Origin: Escherichia coli
Lineage (GTDB): Bacteria > Pseudomonadota > Gammaproteobacteria > Enterobacterales > Enterobacteriaceae
Assembly: GCF_003790525.1 (NCBI RefSeq)
Contig: NZ_CP033635.1
Reading direction: 5' to 3' (one strand)
Length of the DNA: 64,000 nucleotides
This document shows positions 2 through 4,478 of the stretch, in pieces (position 1 is the stretch's first letter; each line of letters opens with the position of its first letter). The translations under genes were made by a program, and so were the position numbers. The notes beneath the pieces were generated by a model, which worked only from the letters and a program-made list of their open reading frames with translations, had not been told where the DNA came from and made no database searches.

Positions 2-3000
2 ACAACCACCATCAAAAATGGCGGTGAGCAAAGAGTATATGAGAGCCGTGCGCTGGACACTACGATTGAAGGCGGAACTCAGTCTCTGAATAGTAATTCA
101 ACGGCAAAAAATACGCAGATCTATTCTGGTGGTACGCAAATTGTTGATTACACCAGCACCTCGGATGTTATTGAAATTTATTCCGGTGGCGTGCTTGATG
201 TTAGAGGTGGTATGGCAACAAATGTTACTCAGCACGATGGAGCCGCTTTAAAAGTAACGACTTACGATTTGACGGTGAGCGGTACGAATAGTGAAGGGGC
301 ATTCTCCATCCACAATAACGTGGCAGACAATGTGTTGCTGGAAAACGGTGGTCATTTAGACGTATATGGTTCGGCAACCAGGACGATAATTAAAGATAAA
401 GGAACAATGTCAGTTTTAACGAATGCTAAAGCTGATGCGACCCGAATAGATAATGGCGGGGTTATGGATGTCGCCGGAAACGCGACCAATACCATAATCA
501 ATGGTGGTACACAGAATATTAATAATCATGGTATTGCCACTGGCACCAATATCAACAGTGGAACGCAAAATATCAAGAGCGGCGGGAAAGCTGACACGAC
601 AAATATATCCTCCGGGAGCCGGCAGATTGTTGAGAAAGATGGTACGGCAACTGGCAGCAATATTAGCGCTGGAGGCTCGCTGATTGTCTATACCGGCGGT
701 ATTGCACATGGGGTTAACCAGGAGACGGGCAGTGCTTTAGTTGCCAACACGGGCGCAGGGACTGATATCGAAGGATACAACAAGCTCTCTCGCTTCACTA
801 TTATCGGAGGAGAGGCTAATTATGTTGTGCTGGAAAATACCGGCGAACTGACGGTAGTGGCTAAAACCTCGGCGAAAAATACTACCATTGATGCTGGCGG
901 TAAGCTGATTGTCCAGAAGGAGGCTAAAACAGATAGCACCAGACTTAATAATGGCGGCGTTCTGGAGGTTCAGGACGGTGGTGAGGCTAAGCATGTTGAG
1001 CAACAATCCGGCGGCGCATTAATTGCTTCCACGACCTCCGGAACACTTATCGAAGGAACCAACAGTTATGGTGATGCTTTCTACATCAGGAATTCAGAAG
1101 CTAAAAATGTAGTGCTGGAAAACGCTGGCTCATTAACAGTCGTCACTGGTTCCCGGGCAGTTGACACGATTATTAATGCCAACGGCAAAATGGATGTTTA
1201 TGGAAAAGATGTTGGTACTGTACTTAATAGTGCGGGTACCCAAACAATATATGCCAGTGCCACTTCTGAAAAAGCAAATATCAAAGGTGGCAAGCAAACG
1301 GTATATGGTTTAGCCACTGAGGCAAATATCGAAAGTGGTGAACAAATTGTTGATGGTGGGTCAACAGATAAAACGCACATCAAAGGCGGCACGCAAACCG
1401 TTCAGAATTATGGTAAGGCGATCAATACCGATATCGTCTCTGGCCTACAACAAATTATGGCAAACGGGACAGCGGAAGGTTCCATTATTAATGGCGGTTC
1501 ACAGGTAGTTAATGAGGGCGGTCTGGCTGAAAACTCGGTACTTAATGACGGCGGCACACTCGATGTGCGGGAGAAAGGCAGCGCTACGGGGATACAGCAG
1601 AGTAGCCAGGGCGCGTTGGTGGCAACCACCAGAGCGACGCGGGTCACAGGGACACGCGCTGATGGCGTCGCGTTCAGCATCGAGCAGGGTGCGGCGAACA
1701 ATATCCTGCTGACAAATGGCGGCGTGTTAACCGTGGAGTCAGACACCTCTTCCGCCAAAACACAGGTCAATGCGGGCGGGCGGGAGATCGTCAAAACAAA
1801 AGCCACTGCGACAGGCACGACGCTCACCGGCGGCGAACAAATCGTCGAGGGTGTGGCGAATGAGACAACGATTAACGACGGCGGAATACAAACAGTTTCG
1901 GCTAACGGTGAGGCAGTAAAAACAACGATTAATGAAGGCGGTACGCTGACAGTCAACGATAATGGCAAAGCGACAGATATCATCCAGAACAGCGGTGCCG
2001 CTCTCCAGACGAGCACGGCTAACGGTATTGAAATCAGCGGTACTCACCAGTACGGCACCTTTTCCATTGCCGGAAATTTAGCGACCAATGCGTTGCTGGA
2101 AAATGGCGGTAATTTATTGGTATTAGCAGGTACCGAAGCCCGTGACTCCACGGTTGGCAAGGGTGGTGCAATGCAAAACCTGGGTCAGGACTCCGCCACA
2201 AAGGTTAACTCTGGCGGGCAATATACCCTTGGGCGGTCAAAAGATGAGTTTCAGGCTCTGGCCCGGGCAGAAGATCTCCAGGTCGCTGGCGGGACGGCAA
2301 TCGTCTATGCAGGTACGCTGGCGGATGCATCGGTCAGTGGCGCGACAGGAAGCCTGTCGTTAATGACGCCACGGGATAATGTTACGCCAGTTAAACTCGA
2401 AGGGGCGATCCGGATTACCGATAGCGCGACATTAACTATCGGAAATGGCGTCGATACGACGCTTACCGACCTGACGGCTGCCAGCCGGGGCAGTGTCTGG
2501 CTTAACAGCAATAATTCCTGTGCAGGTACCAGCAACTGCGAATATAGAGTAAACAGTTTGCTCCTCAACGACGGTGATGTTTATTTATCAGCACAAACAG
2601 CAGCGCCTGCCACAACTAACGGTATCTACAATACGCTGACAACCAGTGAACTTTCCGGCAGCGGTAATTTCTACCTGCATACCAACGTTGCAGGCTCCCG
2701 GGGCGATCAACTGGTCGTCAACAACAACGCCACTGGTAATTTTAAAATCTTTGTTCAGGATACCGGCGTCAGCCCTCAGTCTGACGACGCGATGACGCTG
2801 GTGAAAACAGGGGGAGGGGATGCTTCGTTTACGCTGGGTAATACCGGCGGTTTCGTTGATCTTGGGACCTATGAGTATGTCCTGAAAAGCGACGGCAACA
2901 GCAACTGGAACCTGACCAATGATGTCAAACCCAACCCGGACCCCAACCCAAATCCGAAGCCGGATCCAAAACCAGACCCAAAACCGGATCCGAAACCAGA

Positions 3001-3955
3001 CCCGACTCCCGATCCAACGCCGACACCCGTCCCGGAGAAACGCATCACGCCTTCTACGGCAGCCGTACTCAATATGGCAGCAACATTACCGTTGGTCTTT
3101 GATGCTGAGCTAAACAGTATTCGCGAGCGGTTGAACATAATGAAAGCGAGTCCACACAACAATAATGTCTGGGGGACGACGTATAACACCCGTAATAATG
3201 TCACCACCGATGCGGGTGCCGGGTTTGAGCAGACGCTGACCGGAATGACGGTGGGGATCGATAGCCGTAATGATATTCCTGAGGGGATTGCGACGCTGGG
3301 CGCTTTTATGGGTTATTCCCATTCACATATCGGTTTTGATCGTGGAGGACATGGCAGTGTGGGCAGTTATTCTCTGGGGGGCTATGCCAGCTGGGAACAT
3401 GAAAGTGGTTTCTATCTGGACGGTATCGTGAAGCTGAACCGCTTTGAAAGTAACGTAGCCGGTAAAATGAGCAGCGGTGGAGCCGCCAACGGCAGTTATC
3501 GCAGCAACGGGCTGGGCGGTCACATTGAAACCGGGATGCGATTTACCGATGGTAACTGGAACCTGACGCCGTATGCATCGTTAACGGGGTTCACCGCTGA
3601 TAACCCCGAATATCATTTATCCAATGGCATGGAATCGAAATCAGTCGATACCCGCAGTATATATCGTGAACTGGGCGCAACGCTGAGTTACAACATGCGT
3701 CTGGGGAACGGCATGGAAGTTGAGCCGTGGCTGAAGGCGGCTGTGCGCAAAGAATTTGTCGATGATAACCGGGTGAAAGTGAATAATGACGGTAATTTTG
3801 TCAATGATTTGTCGGGCAGACGTGGAATATACCAGGCAGGTATTAAAGCCTCATTCAGCAGTTCGTTAAGCGGGAATCTCGGGGTGGGGTATAGCCATGG
3901 TGCCGGTGTGGAATCCCCGTGGAACGCAGTGGCTGGTGTGAACTGGTCGTTCTGA
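2..3955 (+). CDS. AIDA-I-type autotransporter adhesin, 5'-partial (reading frame open to the window edge)
   Basis: Frame is open from position 2 with no stop, so the gene starts upstream of the window. Repetitive Gly/Thr/Asn-rich beta-helix-like passenger, Pro-rich PNPDPK linker, C-terminal beta-barrel domain ending in ...NWSF. By position next to ssrA it may be the ypjA ortholog, but that is inferred from context only. Confidence 0.8.
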   Translation, partial: TTTIKNGGEQRVYESRALDTTIEGGTQSLNSNSTAKNTQIYSGGTQIVDYTSTSDVIEIYSGGVLDVRGGMATNVTQHDGAALKVTTYDLTVSGTNSEGAFSIHNNVADNVLLENGGHLDVYGSATRTIIKDKGTMSVLTNAKADATRIDNGGVMDVAGNATNTIINGGTQNINNHGIATGTNINSGTQNIKSGGKADTTNISSGSRQIVEKDGTATGSNISAGGSLIVYTGGIAHGVNQETGSALVANTGAGTDIEGYNKLSRFTIIGGEANYVVLENTGELTVVAKTSAKNTTIDAGGKLIVQKEAKTDSTRLNNGGVLEVQDGGEAKHVEQQSGGALIASTTSGTLIEGTNSYGDAFYIRNSEAKNVVLENAGSLTVVTGSRAVDTIINANGKMDVYGKDVGTVLNSAGTQTIYASATSEKANIKGGKQTVYGLATEANIESGEQIVDGGSTDKTHIKGGTQTVQNYGKAINTDIVSGLQQIMANGTAEGSIINGGSQVVNEGGLAENSVLNDGGTLDVREKGSATGIQQSSQGALVATTRATRVTGTRADGVAFSIEQGAANNILLTNGGVLTVESDTSSAKTQVNAGGREIVKTKATATGTTLTGGEQIVEGVANETTINDGGIQTVSANGEAVKTTINEGGTLTVNDNGKATDIIQNSGAALQTSTANGIEISGTHQYGTFSIAGNLATNALLENGGNLLVLAGTEARDSTVGKGGAMQNLGQDSATKVNSGGQYTLGRSKDEFQALARAEDLQVAGGTAIVYAGTLADASVSGATGSLSLMTPRDNVTPVKLEGAIRITDSATLTIGNGVDTTLTDLTAASRGSVWLNSNNSCAGTSNCEYRVNSLLLNDGDVYLSAQTAAPATTNGIYNTLTTSELSGSGNFYLHTNVAGSRGDQLVVNNNATGNFKIFVQDTGVSPQSDDAMTLVKTGGGDASFTLGNTGGFVDLGTYEYVLKSDGNSNWNLTNDVKPNPDPNPNPKPDPKPDPKPDPKPDPTPDPTPTPVPEKRITPSTAAVLNMAATLPLVFDAELNSIRERLNIMKASPHNNNVWGTTYNTRNNVTTDAGAGFEQTLTGMTVGIDSRNDIPEGIATLGAFMGYSHSHIGFDRGGHGSVGSYSLGGYASWEHESGFYLDGIVKLNRFESNVAGKMSSGGAANGSYRSNGLGGHIETGMRFTDGNWNLTPYASLTGFTADNPEYHLSNGMESKSVDTRSIYRELGATLSYNMRLGNGMEVEPWLKAAVRKEFVDDNRVKVNNDGNFVNDLSGRRGIYQAGIKASFSSSLSGNLGVGYSHGAGVESPWNAVAGVNWSF

Positions 3956-4115
3956 CCATCAACGAAAAAGCCCACATCTGTGGGCTTTCATATCACCAGG
4001 AGCCGCGGCTCCTTTGCGTATCCTTTTTTGTCTCCTCACCGTCTGGTCGGTGTCCTGCTGAGACTGCTAACTTCCTGTTTTTATTGGTGTTGTCCTTACA
4101 CCGTCCAATCATGAT

Positions 4116-4478
4116 TGGTGGAGCTGGCGGGAGTTGAACCCGCGTCCGAAATTCCTACATCCTCGGTACTACATGCTTAGTCAGTCTTTACATTCGCTTG
4201 CCAGCTGCGGACGGACACGCCACTAACAAACTAGCCTGATTAAGTTTTAACGCTTCAACCCCAGGCAGGGCTTCCACGCGATCTCTTTTGGGTTTGACCT
4301 CTCTTGATCCCCGTCCTAAGAGCGGAGGCTAGGGAGAGAGGGCTCTAAGCAGGTTATTAAGCTGCTAAAGCGTAGTTTTCGTCGTTTGCGACTATTTTTT
4401 GCGGCTTTTTACGAGGCCAACCGCCCCTCGGCATGCACCTTGGGTTTCGCAAATCCCGTCGAATCCAGAATCAGCCCC
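4116..4478 (-). ncRNA. ssrA: tmRNA (SsrA), 363 nt
   Basis: Reverse complement reads GGGGCTGATTCTGGATTCGACGGG ... CCAGCTCCACCA and contains the tag reading frame encoding ANDENYALAA; sits downstream of smpB as expected. Confidence 0.95.

What the first reader, a model, noticed from the sequence alone, without database searches (positions are those of the whole stretch)
2..3955. Modular repeat architecture in the autotransporter passenger domain
The passenger region is built from recurring modules of about 90-130 residues, each containing a motif like N-V-[VL]-L-E-N-[GA]-G-x-L-[TD]-V, embedded in shorter GG-T-Q-x-[IV] beta-helix rungs. Instances start near nt 333, 828, 1113, 1706 and 2093. Repeat modules like this are a substrate for recombinational expansion and contraction, and so for antigenic or adhesive variation between strains. 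The gene is 5'-truncated by the window, so the signal peptide and first modules are missing.
Basis: seen in the sequence. Interest (0 to 1): 0.4.

Follow-up and report, generated by a model that had tools for sequence, protein, structure and literature searches.

The report
Repeat modules in E. coli YpjA adhesin
The region is the well-known E. coli autotransporter adhesin gene ypjA/ehaD, whose surface-exposed part really is built from short repeated turns plus five copies of a larger module, but these modules are old, diverged and constant in number between strains, so the finding is ordinary.

Summary
Window 2-3955 (+) is the last 1317 codons of ypjA/ehaD, an AIDA-I-type autotransporter, and matches E. 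coli SC516 at 100%.

The five N-V-L-L-E-N-G-G sites lie at nt 329, about 821, 1106, 1700 and 2087. Each sits in a 65-68-residue module set among 18-19-residue rungs. Left-out modules score 45-77 bits, against 4 bits or less for other rungs and 9.3 or less in shuffles. Pfam (PF16168) and NCBIfam (TIGR04415) already describe these repeats.

The recombination reading is not supported for the modules:
- They are only 34-45% identical in protein and 45-54% in DNA, and the longest exact repeat is 12 nt.
- 45 of 46 sampled complete genomes keep the same passenger length; the other has an IS3 insertion.

Length varies between strains in the proline-rich linker (2927-3017), a true tandem repeat with at least five alleles.

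Module number differs only over longer timescales:
- E. coli YpjA has 5.
- The E. albertii ortholog has 4.
- A paralog at ymgJ-minE has 3.
- Ag43/TibA-like relatives have 1-3.

Modules align to Ag43's hairpin bend region. Already known; low interest.

The parts
2..3955 (+). 3' 1317 codons plus stop of ypjA/ehaD (adhesin-like AIDA-I-type autotransporter). The first 205 codons lie upstream of the window.
   Evidence: the ORF is open from the window edge. 100% DNA match to E. coli SC516, where the annotated ypjA is 1522 aa. Pfam finds AIDA, Pertactin and Autotransporter.
2..172 (+). Last three simple 18-19-residue beta-helix rungs (G-G-x-Q-x-V type) of the N-terminal run of 11 rungs.
   Evidence: Rung HMM map. 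NCBIfam TIGR04415 strand-loop-strand repeat, 238 bits against a cut-off of 30.
173..367 (+). Module A (full-length aa 263-327), with the NVLLENGG motif at nt 329.
   Evidence: Module HMM E=3e-31. Leave-one-out score 61.6 bits.
659..859 (+). Module B (aa 425-491), with the YVVLENTG motif at about nt 821.
   Evidence: Module HMM E=4e-30. Leave-one-out score 45.0 bits.
941..1144 (+). Module C (aa 519-586), with the NVVLENAG motif at nt 1106.
   Evidence: Module HMM E=5e-33. Leave-one-out score 77.0 bits.
1541..1738 (+). Module D (aa 719-784), with the NILLTNGG motif at nt 1700.
   Evidence: Module HMM E=2e-29. Leave-one-out score 58.6 bits.
1925..2125 (+). Module E (aa 847-913), with the NALLENGG motif at nt 2087. 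This copy is shared with Ag43 and TibA relatives.
   Evidence: Module HMM E=5e-31. Aligns to Ag43a 4KH3 residues 234-312 and TibA 4Q1Q residues 240-305. The L-x-E columns of the motif (L-L-E-N-G-G) are invariant, and the other motif positions nearly invariant, in 49 homologs.
2549..2917 (+). [quoted passage not shown]
   Evidence: Pfam PF03212, E=4.3e-45, window-protein residues 850-972. Sequence matches to pertactin 1DAB.
2927..3017 (+). Proline-rich linker (PN/PDPK)n. It is the only true DNA tandem repeat in the gene and the site of length polymorphism between strains.
   Evidence: TRF periods 12 and 24. The repeat finder family D5. Three linker lengths in five alleles, and (PN)21-29 in the paralog. 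Spans of 237, 261, 267, 273 and 321 nt in 59 sampled genomes.
3167..3955 (+). C-terminal 12-stranded translocator beta-barrel, ending W-S-F-stop.
   Evidence: Pfam PF03797, E=1e-45. TIGR01414, 331 bits. Sequence matches to the BrkA 3QQ2 and Vag8 7AKV barrels.

Best explanation
This is the passenger, linker and barrel of YpjA/EhaD, a classical (type Va) AIDA-I-type autotransporter adhesin of E. coli.

Architecture. The passenger is a long right-handed beta-helix. Most turns are simple 18-19-residue rungs of the type x-T-x-I-x-G-G-x-Q-x-V. At five places a 65-68-residue module replaces the plain rungs. Its consensus is L-N-x-G-G-x-L-x-V ... Q-x-x-G-G-A-L-x-A-x-T ... G-T-N-x-x-G-x-F-x-I ... A-x-N-V-L-L-E-N-G-G-x-L-T-V.

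What the module is. It is homologous to the element present twice in tandem in Antigen 43, where it lies in the hairpin-flanked bend of the L-shaped helix, and once at the end of the TibA fragment. The modules are therefore most likely structural hairpin or bend elements of the helix (inferred). They arose by ancient internal duplication (shown by divergence).

Why copy number is stable. The copies are now too diverged to recombine homologously, so module number is fixed within E. coli. Changes have happened only rarely, by in-register events at short G-G-codon microhomologies. Such changes are visible between species and between ypjA and its paralog at ymgJ-minE.

Where strains do differ. Present-day length variation arises in the proline-rich linker, which is a real tandem DNA repeat and probably changes by slippage (inferred).

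Function. Adhesion and biofilm promotion are taken from the literature, not tested here.
For: Identity of the gene:
- 100% DNA match to the SC516 ypjA region, annotated 'adhesin-like autotransporter YpjA/EhaD'.
- Pfam AIDA, Pertactin and Autotransporter.
- TIGR01414 and TIGR04415.

Repeat architecture:
- Dot-plot against shuffles.
- Rung map.
- Five modules by HMM, with leave-one-out controls.

Age of the modules:
- 34-45% amino-acid identity and 45-54% nucleotide identity.
- Longest exact repeat 12 nt.

Stability across strains:
-.
- No complete genome carries the P0003 or P0007 junctions.

Long-term copy-number change:
- YpjA has 5 modules.
- The E. albertii ortholog P0011 has 4.
- The ymgJ-minE paralog has 3.
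- Distant relatives have 1 (89 proteins), 2 (18) or 3 (2).

Junctions:
- The paralog junctions are in register and lie at 14/16-nt (ACTTAAT..GGCGGC) and about 12/15-nt microhomologies.

Linker polymorphism:
-.

Structural homology:
- Module E aligns to Ag43a residues 234-312 (54.7 bits) and 309-391 (25.6 bits).
- Ag43 structures are described as bent by beta-hairpin motifs flanking three rungs after 13 turns (PMC8993888).
- The AlphaFold2 model (mean pLDDT 82.9) is all-beta. In each module four longer strands replace the three-strand rung pattern.
- The best solved-structure matches are Ag43 and TibA.

Literature:
- YpjA is placed with the self-associating autotransporters and linked to biofilm formation. 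No structure has been published (PMC9289746; PMC12547504).
Against: - The bend or hairpin role of the modules is inferred from alignment to Ag43 and from the secondary-structure string. Model coordinates could not be inspected, so no bend angle was measured.
- Modules A and B have low model confidence in their central part (pLDDT about 48-53).
- Constancy of module number rests on spread samples of 45 and 28 genomes plus 5 full alignments, not on a census of all genomes with the gene. Rare variants of up to about 6-7% cannot be excluded.
- Draft assemblies do contain apparent variants: a one-rung deletion in P0003 and a duplication of about 160 residues in P0010. These may be real rare events rather than artefacts.
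Confidence: 0.85

Rival explanations
1. One reading: the modules are an active substrate for homologous recombination. Module number therefore expands and contracts between strains, giving antigenic or adhesive variation in the manner of a contingency locus.
For: - In-register differences in module number exist between ypjA and its ymgJ-minE paralog: 216 and 199 residues, with junctions at equivalent rung positions.
- The E. albertii ortholog also differs in module number.
- Draft assemblies show a 19-residue single-rung deletion (P0003) and a duplication (P0010).
Against: - Module DNA identity is only 45-54%, and the longest exact repeat is 12 nt.
- All five aligned alleles have five modules.
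- 45 of 46 and 28 of 28 sampled complete genomes are unchanged.
- The P0003 and P0007 junctions are absent from 5426 complete genomes.
- The common lesions are inactivating deletions and IS insertions, not in-frame module changes.
Confidence: 0.07
2. There is no real modular repeat. The apparent motifs are only the generic G/T/N/V-rich composition of a beta-helix.
For: The composition is strongly biased, and simple rungs resemble each other weakly. Many rung HMM hits are marginal (E-values between 1e-4 and 1).
Against: - The dot-plot maximum is 88 against a shuffle maximum of 52, with 1300 against 1.1 high-scoring cells.
- Left-out modules score 45-77 bits, against 4 bits or less for all other rungs and 9.3 or less in shuffles.
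- The independent Pfam AIDA model gives E=4.9e-132.
Confidence: 0.02
3. The modules are primarily functional adhesive or self-association units rather than bend elements. Their number (five) would be held constant by selection for avidity or reach.
For: - Module number and sequence are conserved across E. coli.
- Relatives in the same phylogenetic group self-associate through their beta-helix surfaces (PMC8993888; PMC9289746).
Against: - No binding data exist for YpjA modules.
- About half of the complete genomes lack an intact gene. It covers at least 80% of the query in 2445 of 5426, and many carry inactivating lesions. This argues against strong selection.
- The homologous Ag43 segment is described as the bend, not as the interaction interface.
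Confidence: 0.2

Closest known systems
YpjA / EhaD of E. coli K-12 and O157:H7 (adhesin-like AIDA-I-type autotransporter)
   Same: - About 95% protein identity over the full length.
- The same five modules, pertactin domain, linker and barrel.
- The same chromosomal neighbourhood next to ssrA.
   Different: - This allele is 1522 aa, against 1526 (K-12-like) and 1528 (O157).
- It has a 2-residue indel after module A and a linker that is 2-4 residues shorter.
- No prophage or island lies between ypjA and ssrA here, unlike the K-12-like strain. In the O157 strain the match ends near window nt 4121, before ssrA.
YpjA paralog at the ymgJ-minE locus (the position of the K-12 ycgI remnant; PGAP also names it ypjA)
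   Same: - The same family, the same upstream 39-codon ORF, and the same pertactin, linker and barrel.
- 95-98% DNA identity in the 3' two-thirds.
   Different: - 1118-1134 aa with three modules.
- It lacks aa 121-337 (including module A) and aa 529-718 (a fusion of modules C and D). Both gaps are in register with the rungs.
- The 5' part is only 84-87% identical.
- The linker is (PN)21-29.
- It is intact in 409 of 5426 complete genomes.
Antigen 43 (Ag43a 4KH3; 7KO9, 7KOH, 7KOB) and TibA (4Q1Q), self-associating autotransporters
   Same: - A beta-helix of about 19-residue rungs.
- The same module, present twice in tandem in Ag43a (residues 234-312 and 309-391) and once at the end of the TibA fragment.
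- A pertactin-type autochaperone and a barrel.
- They are the best matches among solved structures.
   Different: - Only 32-38% identity.
- NCBIfam Ag43 scores 347 bits and AIDA-I 271 bits, against cut-offs of 1200.
- YpjA has five dispersed modules instead of one or two adjacent ones, and is about 500 residues longer.
- Global superposition is poor (rmsd 17-19 A), as expected if the overall shape differs.
Pfam AIDA repeat PF16168 and NCBIfam TIGR04415 (O-heptosyltransferase target strand-loop-strand repeat)
   Same: PF16168 gives 9 stretches at E=4.9e-132, and TIGR04415 gives 238 bits.
   Different: - The Pfam model is 63 residues long and is in a different register from the 67-residue module defined here. 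Its best stretch runs from the third part of module B into the start of module C.
- No heptosyltransferase gene is adjacent.

Membership tests
Classical (type Va) autotransporter | C-terminal 12-stranded translocator beta-barrel ending in an aromatic residue | tested here: met
   PF03797 E=1e-45. TIGR01414 331 bits against a cut-off of 16. The protein ends ...NWSF.
Classical (type Va) autotransporter | N-terminal Sec signal peptide | tested here: inconclusive
   It lies outside the window. The full gene in L001 begins MNRTSLHYCRRSVLSLWISALIYAPPGMAAF, which looks like a signal peptide. No signal-peptide predictor was available.
Classical (type Va) autotransporter | Beta-helical passenger with a C-terminal autochaperone (pertactin-type) domain | tested here: met
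   PF03212 E=4.3e-45. The AlphaFold2 model is all-beta with mean pLDDT 82.9. Foldseek hits Ag43, TibA and pertactin.
AIDA-I-type / self-associating autotransporter group (Ag43, AIDA-I, TibA) | Imperfect repeats of about 19 residues, plus the AIDA repeat domain | tested here: met
   PF16168 in 9 stretches. TIGR04415 238 bits. Rung spacing 16-20 residues.
AIDA-I-type / self-associating autotransporter group (Ag43, AIDA-I, TibA) | Orthology to Ag43 or AIDA-I itself (NCBIfam equivalog cut-offs) | tested here: not met
   NF033177 scores 347 bits and NF033176 scores 271 bits, each against a cut-off of 1200. It is a relative, not an Ag43 or AIDA-I ortholog.
AIDA-I-type / self-associating autotransporter group (Ag43, AIDA-I, TibA) | Cell-cell self-association or aggregation | not testable with these tools
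   Only literature is available. It links YpjA to biofilm formation and says the mechanism is unknown (PMC9289746).
AIDA-I-type / self-associating autotransporter group (Ag43, AIDA-I, TibA) | Adjacent heptosyltransferase gene (aah or tibC) that glycosylates the repeats | tested here: not met
   The upstream neighbours are a 39-codon ORF, a recombinase fragment and ypjC. Downstream is ssrA.
YpjA/EhaD orthologous group | High full-length identity to K-12 and O157 YpjA, and the same locus beside ssrA | tested here: met
   94-95% protein identity. Annotated ypjA in all sampled genomes, with ssrA, smpB, ratA, bamE and recN downstream.
Repeat-driven contingency (copy-number variable) locus | Near-identical DNA repeats long enough for recombination or slippage | tested here: not met
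   For the modules, nucleotide identity is 45-54% and the longest exact repeat is 12 nt. The feature is met only by the proline-rich linker at 2927-3017.
Repeat-driven contingency (copy-number variable) locus | Copy-number polymorphism among strains | tested here: not met
   For the modules, 5 of 5 alleles, 45 of 46 sampled genomes and 28 of 28 sampled genomes are unchanged. For the linker it is met, with at least 5 length alleles.

The most novel reading that the evidence does not exclude
YpjA may be a multiply kinked beta-helix. Each of its five modules would be a hairpin bend element of the kind that gives Ag43 its L-shape, so the passenger would be a zig-zag or superhelical rod rather than straight or L-shaped.

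The 5-, 4- and 3-module versions (E. coli YpjA, E. albertii YpjA and the ymgJ-minE paralog) would then be natural shape variants. They would have been made by rare in-register recombination at G-G-codon microhomologies. Gene conversion between the two loci would homogenise the 3' part.
Probability: 0.3. Interest if true: 0.35.

Novelty: already known. Interest (0 to 1): 0.15.

Why it matters
It matters little beyond annotation. The gene, its family and its repeats are already in Pfam, NCBIfam and the autotransporter literature.

Four points are useful in practice:
- Module number in ypjA is not a strain-typing or antigenic-variation marker, but the length of the proline-rich linker is polymorphic.
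- PGAP gives the name ypjA to two different loci: the one beside ssrA and a three-module paralog at ymgJ-minE. Presence/absence surveys of 'ypjA' may therefore mix them.
- Short-read assemblies can produce chimeric or truncated ypjA products.
- If the five modules are bend elements like those of Ag43, YpjA would be a good test case for how bends shape the function of self-associating autotransporters.

Tried and rejected
- BLASTP of the protein against itself returned only the main diagonal. I replaced it with a windowed BLOSUM62 dot-plot and shuffles.
- The exact-sequence cluster look-up found none of four full-length sequences, so no length census came from that collection. The protein search returned mostly fragments and did not list the full-length cluster.
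- P0007 (ypjA 5' part plus the C/D-fusion module arrangement) first looked like a four-module allele at the ssrA locus. Its contig ends inside the gene, and no complete genome holds the junction together with module A in one piece. I treat it as a probable assembly chimera of ypjA and the ymgJ-minE paralog.
- P0003 (a one-rung, 19-residue deletion) is not found in any complete genome. The best hits are the undeleted form in two pieces. It is a rare variant or an artefact.
- P0004, P0006, P0009 and P0005 are in-frame deletions that remove the pertactin domain, the linker or the helix. Their junctions are not between modules, and all four are single-sequence clusters (member_sequences 1; P0004 on 17 contigs, P0009 on 3).
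- The 1.3-kb deletion in H15/H16-type genomes joins the region after module E to the middle of the barrel at a GGCAnnGGTGGnGC microhomology. A frameshift follows it. It is inactivation, not module contraction.
- AlphaFold2 model coordinates are not exposed to scripts, so bend angles could not be measured.
- The original Ag43 structure paper was not in the searchable library.


Full report
WHAT IS THERE

Window 2-3955 on the + strand is an open frame running from the window edge to a stop at 3953-3955.
- Pfam finds the AIDA repeat (PF16168, E=4.9e-132, nine stretches), a pertactin domain (PF03212) and the autotransporter barrel (PF03797).
- The first 4200 bases match E. coli SC516 at 100%, where the gene is annotated ypjA, 'adhesin-like autotransporter YpjA/EhaD'.
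- The full gene there is 1522 codons, so the window lacks the first 205.
- Downstream lie ssrA (window about 4116-4478, minus strand), smpB, ratA, yfjF, bamE and recN.
- The rest of the window is core chromosome, including one rRNA operon, clpB, rpoE and lepA.

CHECKING THE OBSERVATION

The five motif sites exist.

A self dot-plot of the passenger (30-residue windows, BLOSUM62) has a maximum of 88, against a maximum of 52 in 30 composition-preserving shuffles. It has 1300 cells at or above 45, against a mean of 1.1.

Two levels of repeat are present.
- A rung HMM maps about 32 units spaced 16-20 residues apart, of the type T-x-I-x-G-G-x-Q-x-V.
- Between them lie five larger modules at full-length residues 263-327, 425-491, 519-586, 719-784 and 847-913. 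In window coordinates these are 173-367, 659-859, 941-1144, 1541-1738 and 1925-2125.

Leave-one-out tests show the modules are a class of their own. A model built from four modules scores the fifth at 45-77 bits. Nothing else in the protein exceeds 4 bits, and 100 shuffled passengers reach at most 9.3 bits.

Two details need correcting.
- Spacing between modules is 94-200 residues, not 90-130.
- The missing 5' part contains the signal peptide and simple rungs only, with no large module.

TESTING THE INTERPRETATION

DNA level. The copies are only 45-54% identical (34-45% in protein). Exact in-register runs are 5-12 nt, and the longest exact direct repeat in the passenger-coding part is 12 nt. 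From my own knowledge, that is well below the roughly 25 bp that RecA-dependent recombination needs in E. coli. Tandem Repeats Finder reports only the proline-rich linker at 2948-3017.

Aligned alleles. Five full-length alleles (SC516, a K-12-like strain, O157:H7, ECN24 and E275a) are 1522-1528 residues long and all have five modules. The only indels are two residues after module A and two to four residues in the linker.

Spread samples of 5426 complete genomes.
- Among 46 hits covering the whole repeat region, 45 span 2914-2920 nt. The exception has an IS3 insertion.
- In a second sample, 28 of 28 keep the 597-nt interval between modules C and D.

What recurs instead is gene inactivation.
- A 1.3-kb deletion runs from just after module E into the barrel. 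Its junction is a GGCAnnGGTGGnGC microhomology, a frameshift follows it, and it accounts for roughly a tenth of sampled carriers.
- IS5 and IS3 insertions and truncations also occur.
- The gene covers at least 80% of the query in only 2445 of 5426 genomes.

APPARENT COUNTER-EXAMPLES

A protein search turned up shorter relatives.
- Several (P0005, P0009, P0010) proved to be a paralog, not alleles. It sits between ymgJ and minE, where K-12 has only the ycgI barrel remnant, and it has the same 39-codon ORF upstream.
- The paralog is intact (1118-1134 residues) in 409 complete genomes. PGAP also calls it ypjA.
- Relative to YpjA it lacks residues 121-337 (including module A) and 529-718 (which fuses the start of module C to module D), so it has three modules.
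- Both junctions are in register with the rungs and lie at short imperfect homologies: 14 of 16 nt, ACTTAAT..GGCGGC, encoding L-N-x-G-G, and about 12 of 15 nt.
- P0007 combined a ypjA-type 5' end with the paralog's C/D fusion. Its contig ends inside the gene, and no complete genome has that arrangement. It is probably an assembly chimera.
- P0003 has a clean one-rung (19-residue) deletion, but no complete genome shares it.

Across the family, the module HMM counts 5 modules in E. coli YpjA, 4 in the E. albertii ortholog (53% identity; module A is absent and rung numbers between modules differ), 3 in the paralog, and 1, 2 or 3 in 89, 18 and 2 distant Ag43/TibA-like relatives. Module and rung numbers have therefore changed during evolution, in register. 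These are rare old events, not strain-level variation.

WHERE LENGTH REALLY VARIES

The proline-rich linker (window 2927-3017) is a genuine 6/12/24-nt tandem repeat.
- In 59 sampled genomes a 261-nt query across it spans 237, 261, 267, 273 or 321 nt.
- Three linker lengths occur among the five aligned alleles.
- The paralog carries (PN)21 to (PN)29.

WHAT THE MODULES PROBABLY ARE

- Module E aligns to Ag43a (4KH3) residues 234-312 (54.7 bits) and again to 309-391 (25.6 bits). It also aligns to the last 66 residues of the TibA fragment 4Q1Q.
- In a 49-sequence alignment, the L-x-E columns of the L-L-E-N-G-G motif of module E are invariant and the other motif positions nearly invariant.
- The Ag43 structures are described as L-shaped. 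[quoted passage not shown] This places the bend where the two Ag43 modules lie.
- An AlphaFold2 model of residues 29-1185 (mean pLDDT 82.9) is all-beta. In each module it shows four longer strands separated by 4-5-residue turns in place of the three-strand rung pattern. Confidence dips in the centre of modules A and B.
- Foldseek ranks the Ag43 structures and TibA first.

I infer that each module is a hairpin-bearing, possibly bending, element of the helix. This is not shown, because the model coordinates could not be inspected.

COMPARISON WITH WHAT IS KNOWN

- The protein is an ortholog of K-12 and O157 YpjA/EhaD (94-95% identity, same locus).
- It meets the tested defining features of a classical autotransporter and of the AIDA-I-type group. 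TIGR01414 and TIGR04415 score above their cut-offs.
- It is not an Ag43 or AIDA-I ortholog: 347 and 271 bits against cut-offs of 1200.
- It has no adjacent heptosyltransferase gene.
- Reviews place YpjA with the self-associating autotransporters. They link it to biofilm formation and note that no structure or mechanism has been published.

VERDICT

The proposed recombinational variability does not hold for the modules within E. coli. It applies to the linker instead, and to the modules only over long evolutionary time. Interest is low (0.15).

The most novel reading left open is that YpjA is a multiply kinked helix whose 5-, 4- and 3-module relatives are natural shape variants (probability about 0.3).

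Noticed in passing
L014:5132-8536, L015:5132-8494, L016:5132-8488 (not in the window); related to window 2-3955: An intact three-module paralog of ypjA sits between ymgJ and minE in 409 of 5426 complete E. coli genomes, and PGAP also names it ypjA. K-12-like genomes keep only a barrel remnant there, which matches window 3611-3965 at about 96%. That remnant explains the median of two places per genome.
   Followed up: partly
L009 gene against L001 gene; corresponds to window 381-3955: DNA identity between ypjA and the ymgJ-minE paralog rises from 84% at the 5' end, through 87% and 96%, to 98% at the 3' end. This pattern suggests gene conversion between the two loci, or unequal constraint.
   Followed up: no
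L001:2203-2322 (upstream of the window); also L014:4948-5067: A conserved 39-codon ORF lies 64 nt upstream of both ypjA and its paralog. It is annotated variously as hypothetical protein or 'ATPase'. Its function is unknown, and it could be a leader or regulatory peptide.
   Followed up: no
window 4116-4478 (-): ssrA (tmRNA) lies directly after ypjA here. In K-12-like strains the match to the window stops at about nt 4138, and prophage genes (ypjF, yfjZ, ypjJ) follow ypjA instead. In O157 strains the match stops at about nt 4121-4129. This strain therefore has an unoccupied ssrA integration site.
   Followed up: partly
window about 2157-3471: A recurrent 1.3-kb deletion with the same endpoints (GGCAnnGGTGGnGC microhomology) is seen in strains from a baboon, a dog, poultry and humans. 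Seven of 60 spread rows end at that breakpoint. I did not resolve whether it is clonal or recurrent.
   Followed up: partly
window 386 (after module A; full-length aa 329): A 6-nt (2-codon) indel polymorphism, with a locally divergent patch (DVYG--SATR against DINAYGSANK or EVSH--SANK), lies immediately after the LLENGG motif of module A. It splits sampled genomes into classes with 2914-nt and 2920-nt repeat regions.
   Followed up: partly
L013:3001-5594 (P0010): A draft-assembly copy of the paralog shows an apparent internal duplication of about 160 residues (it re-enters at NGEAIKTTINEGG after NNNAT), which gives a fourth module. The contig ends in the gene, so it may be an assembly artefact.
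   Followed up: no
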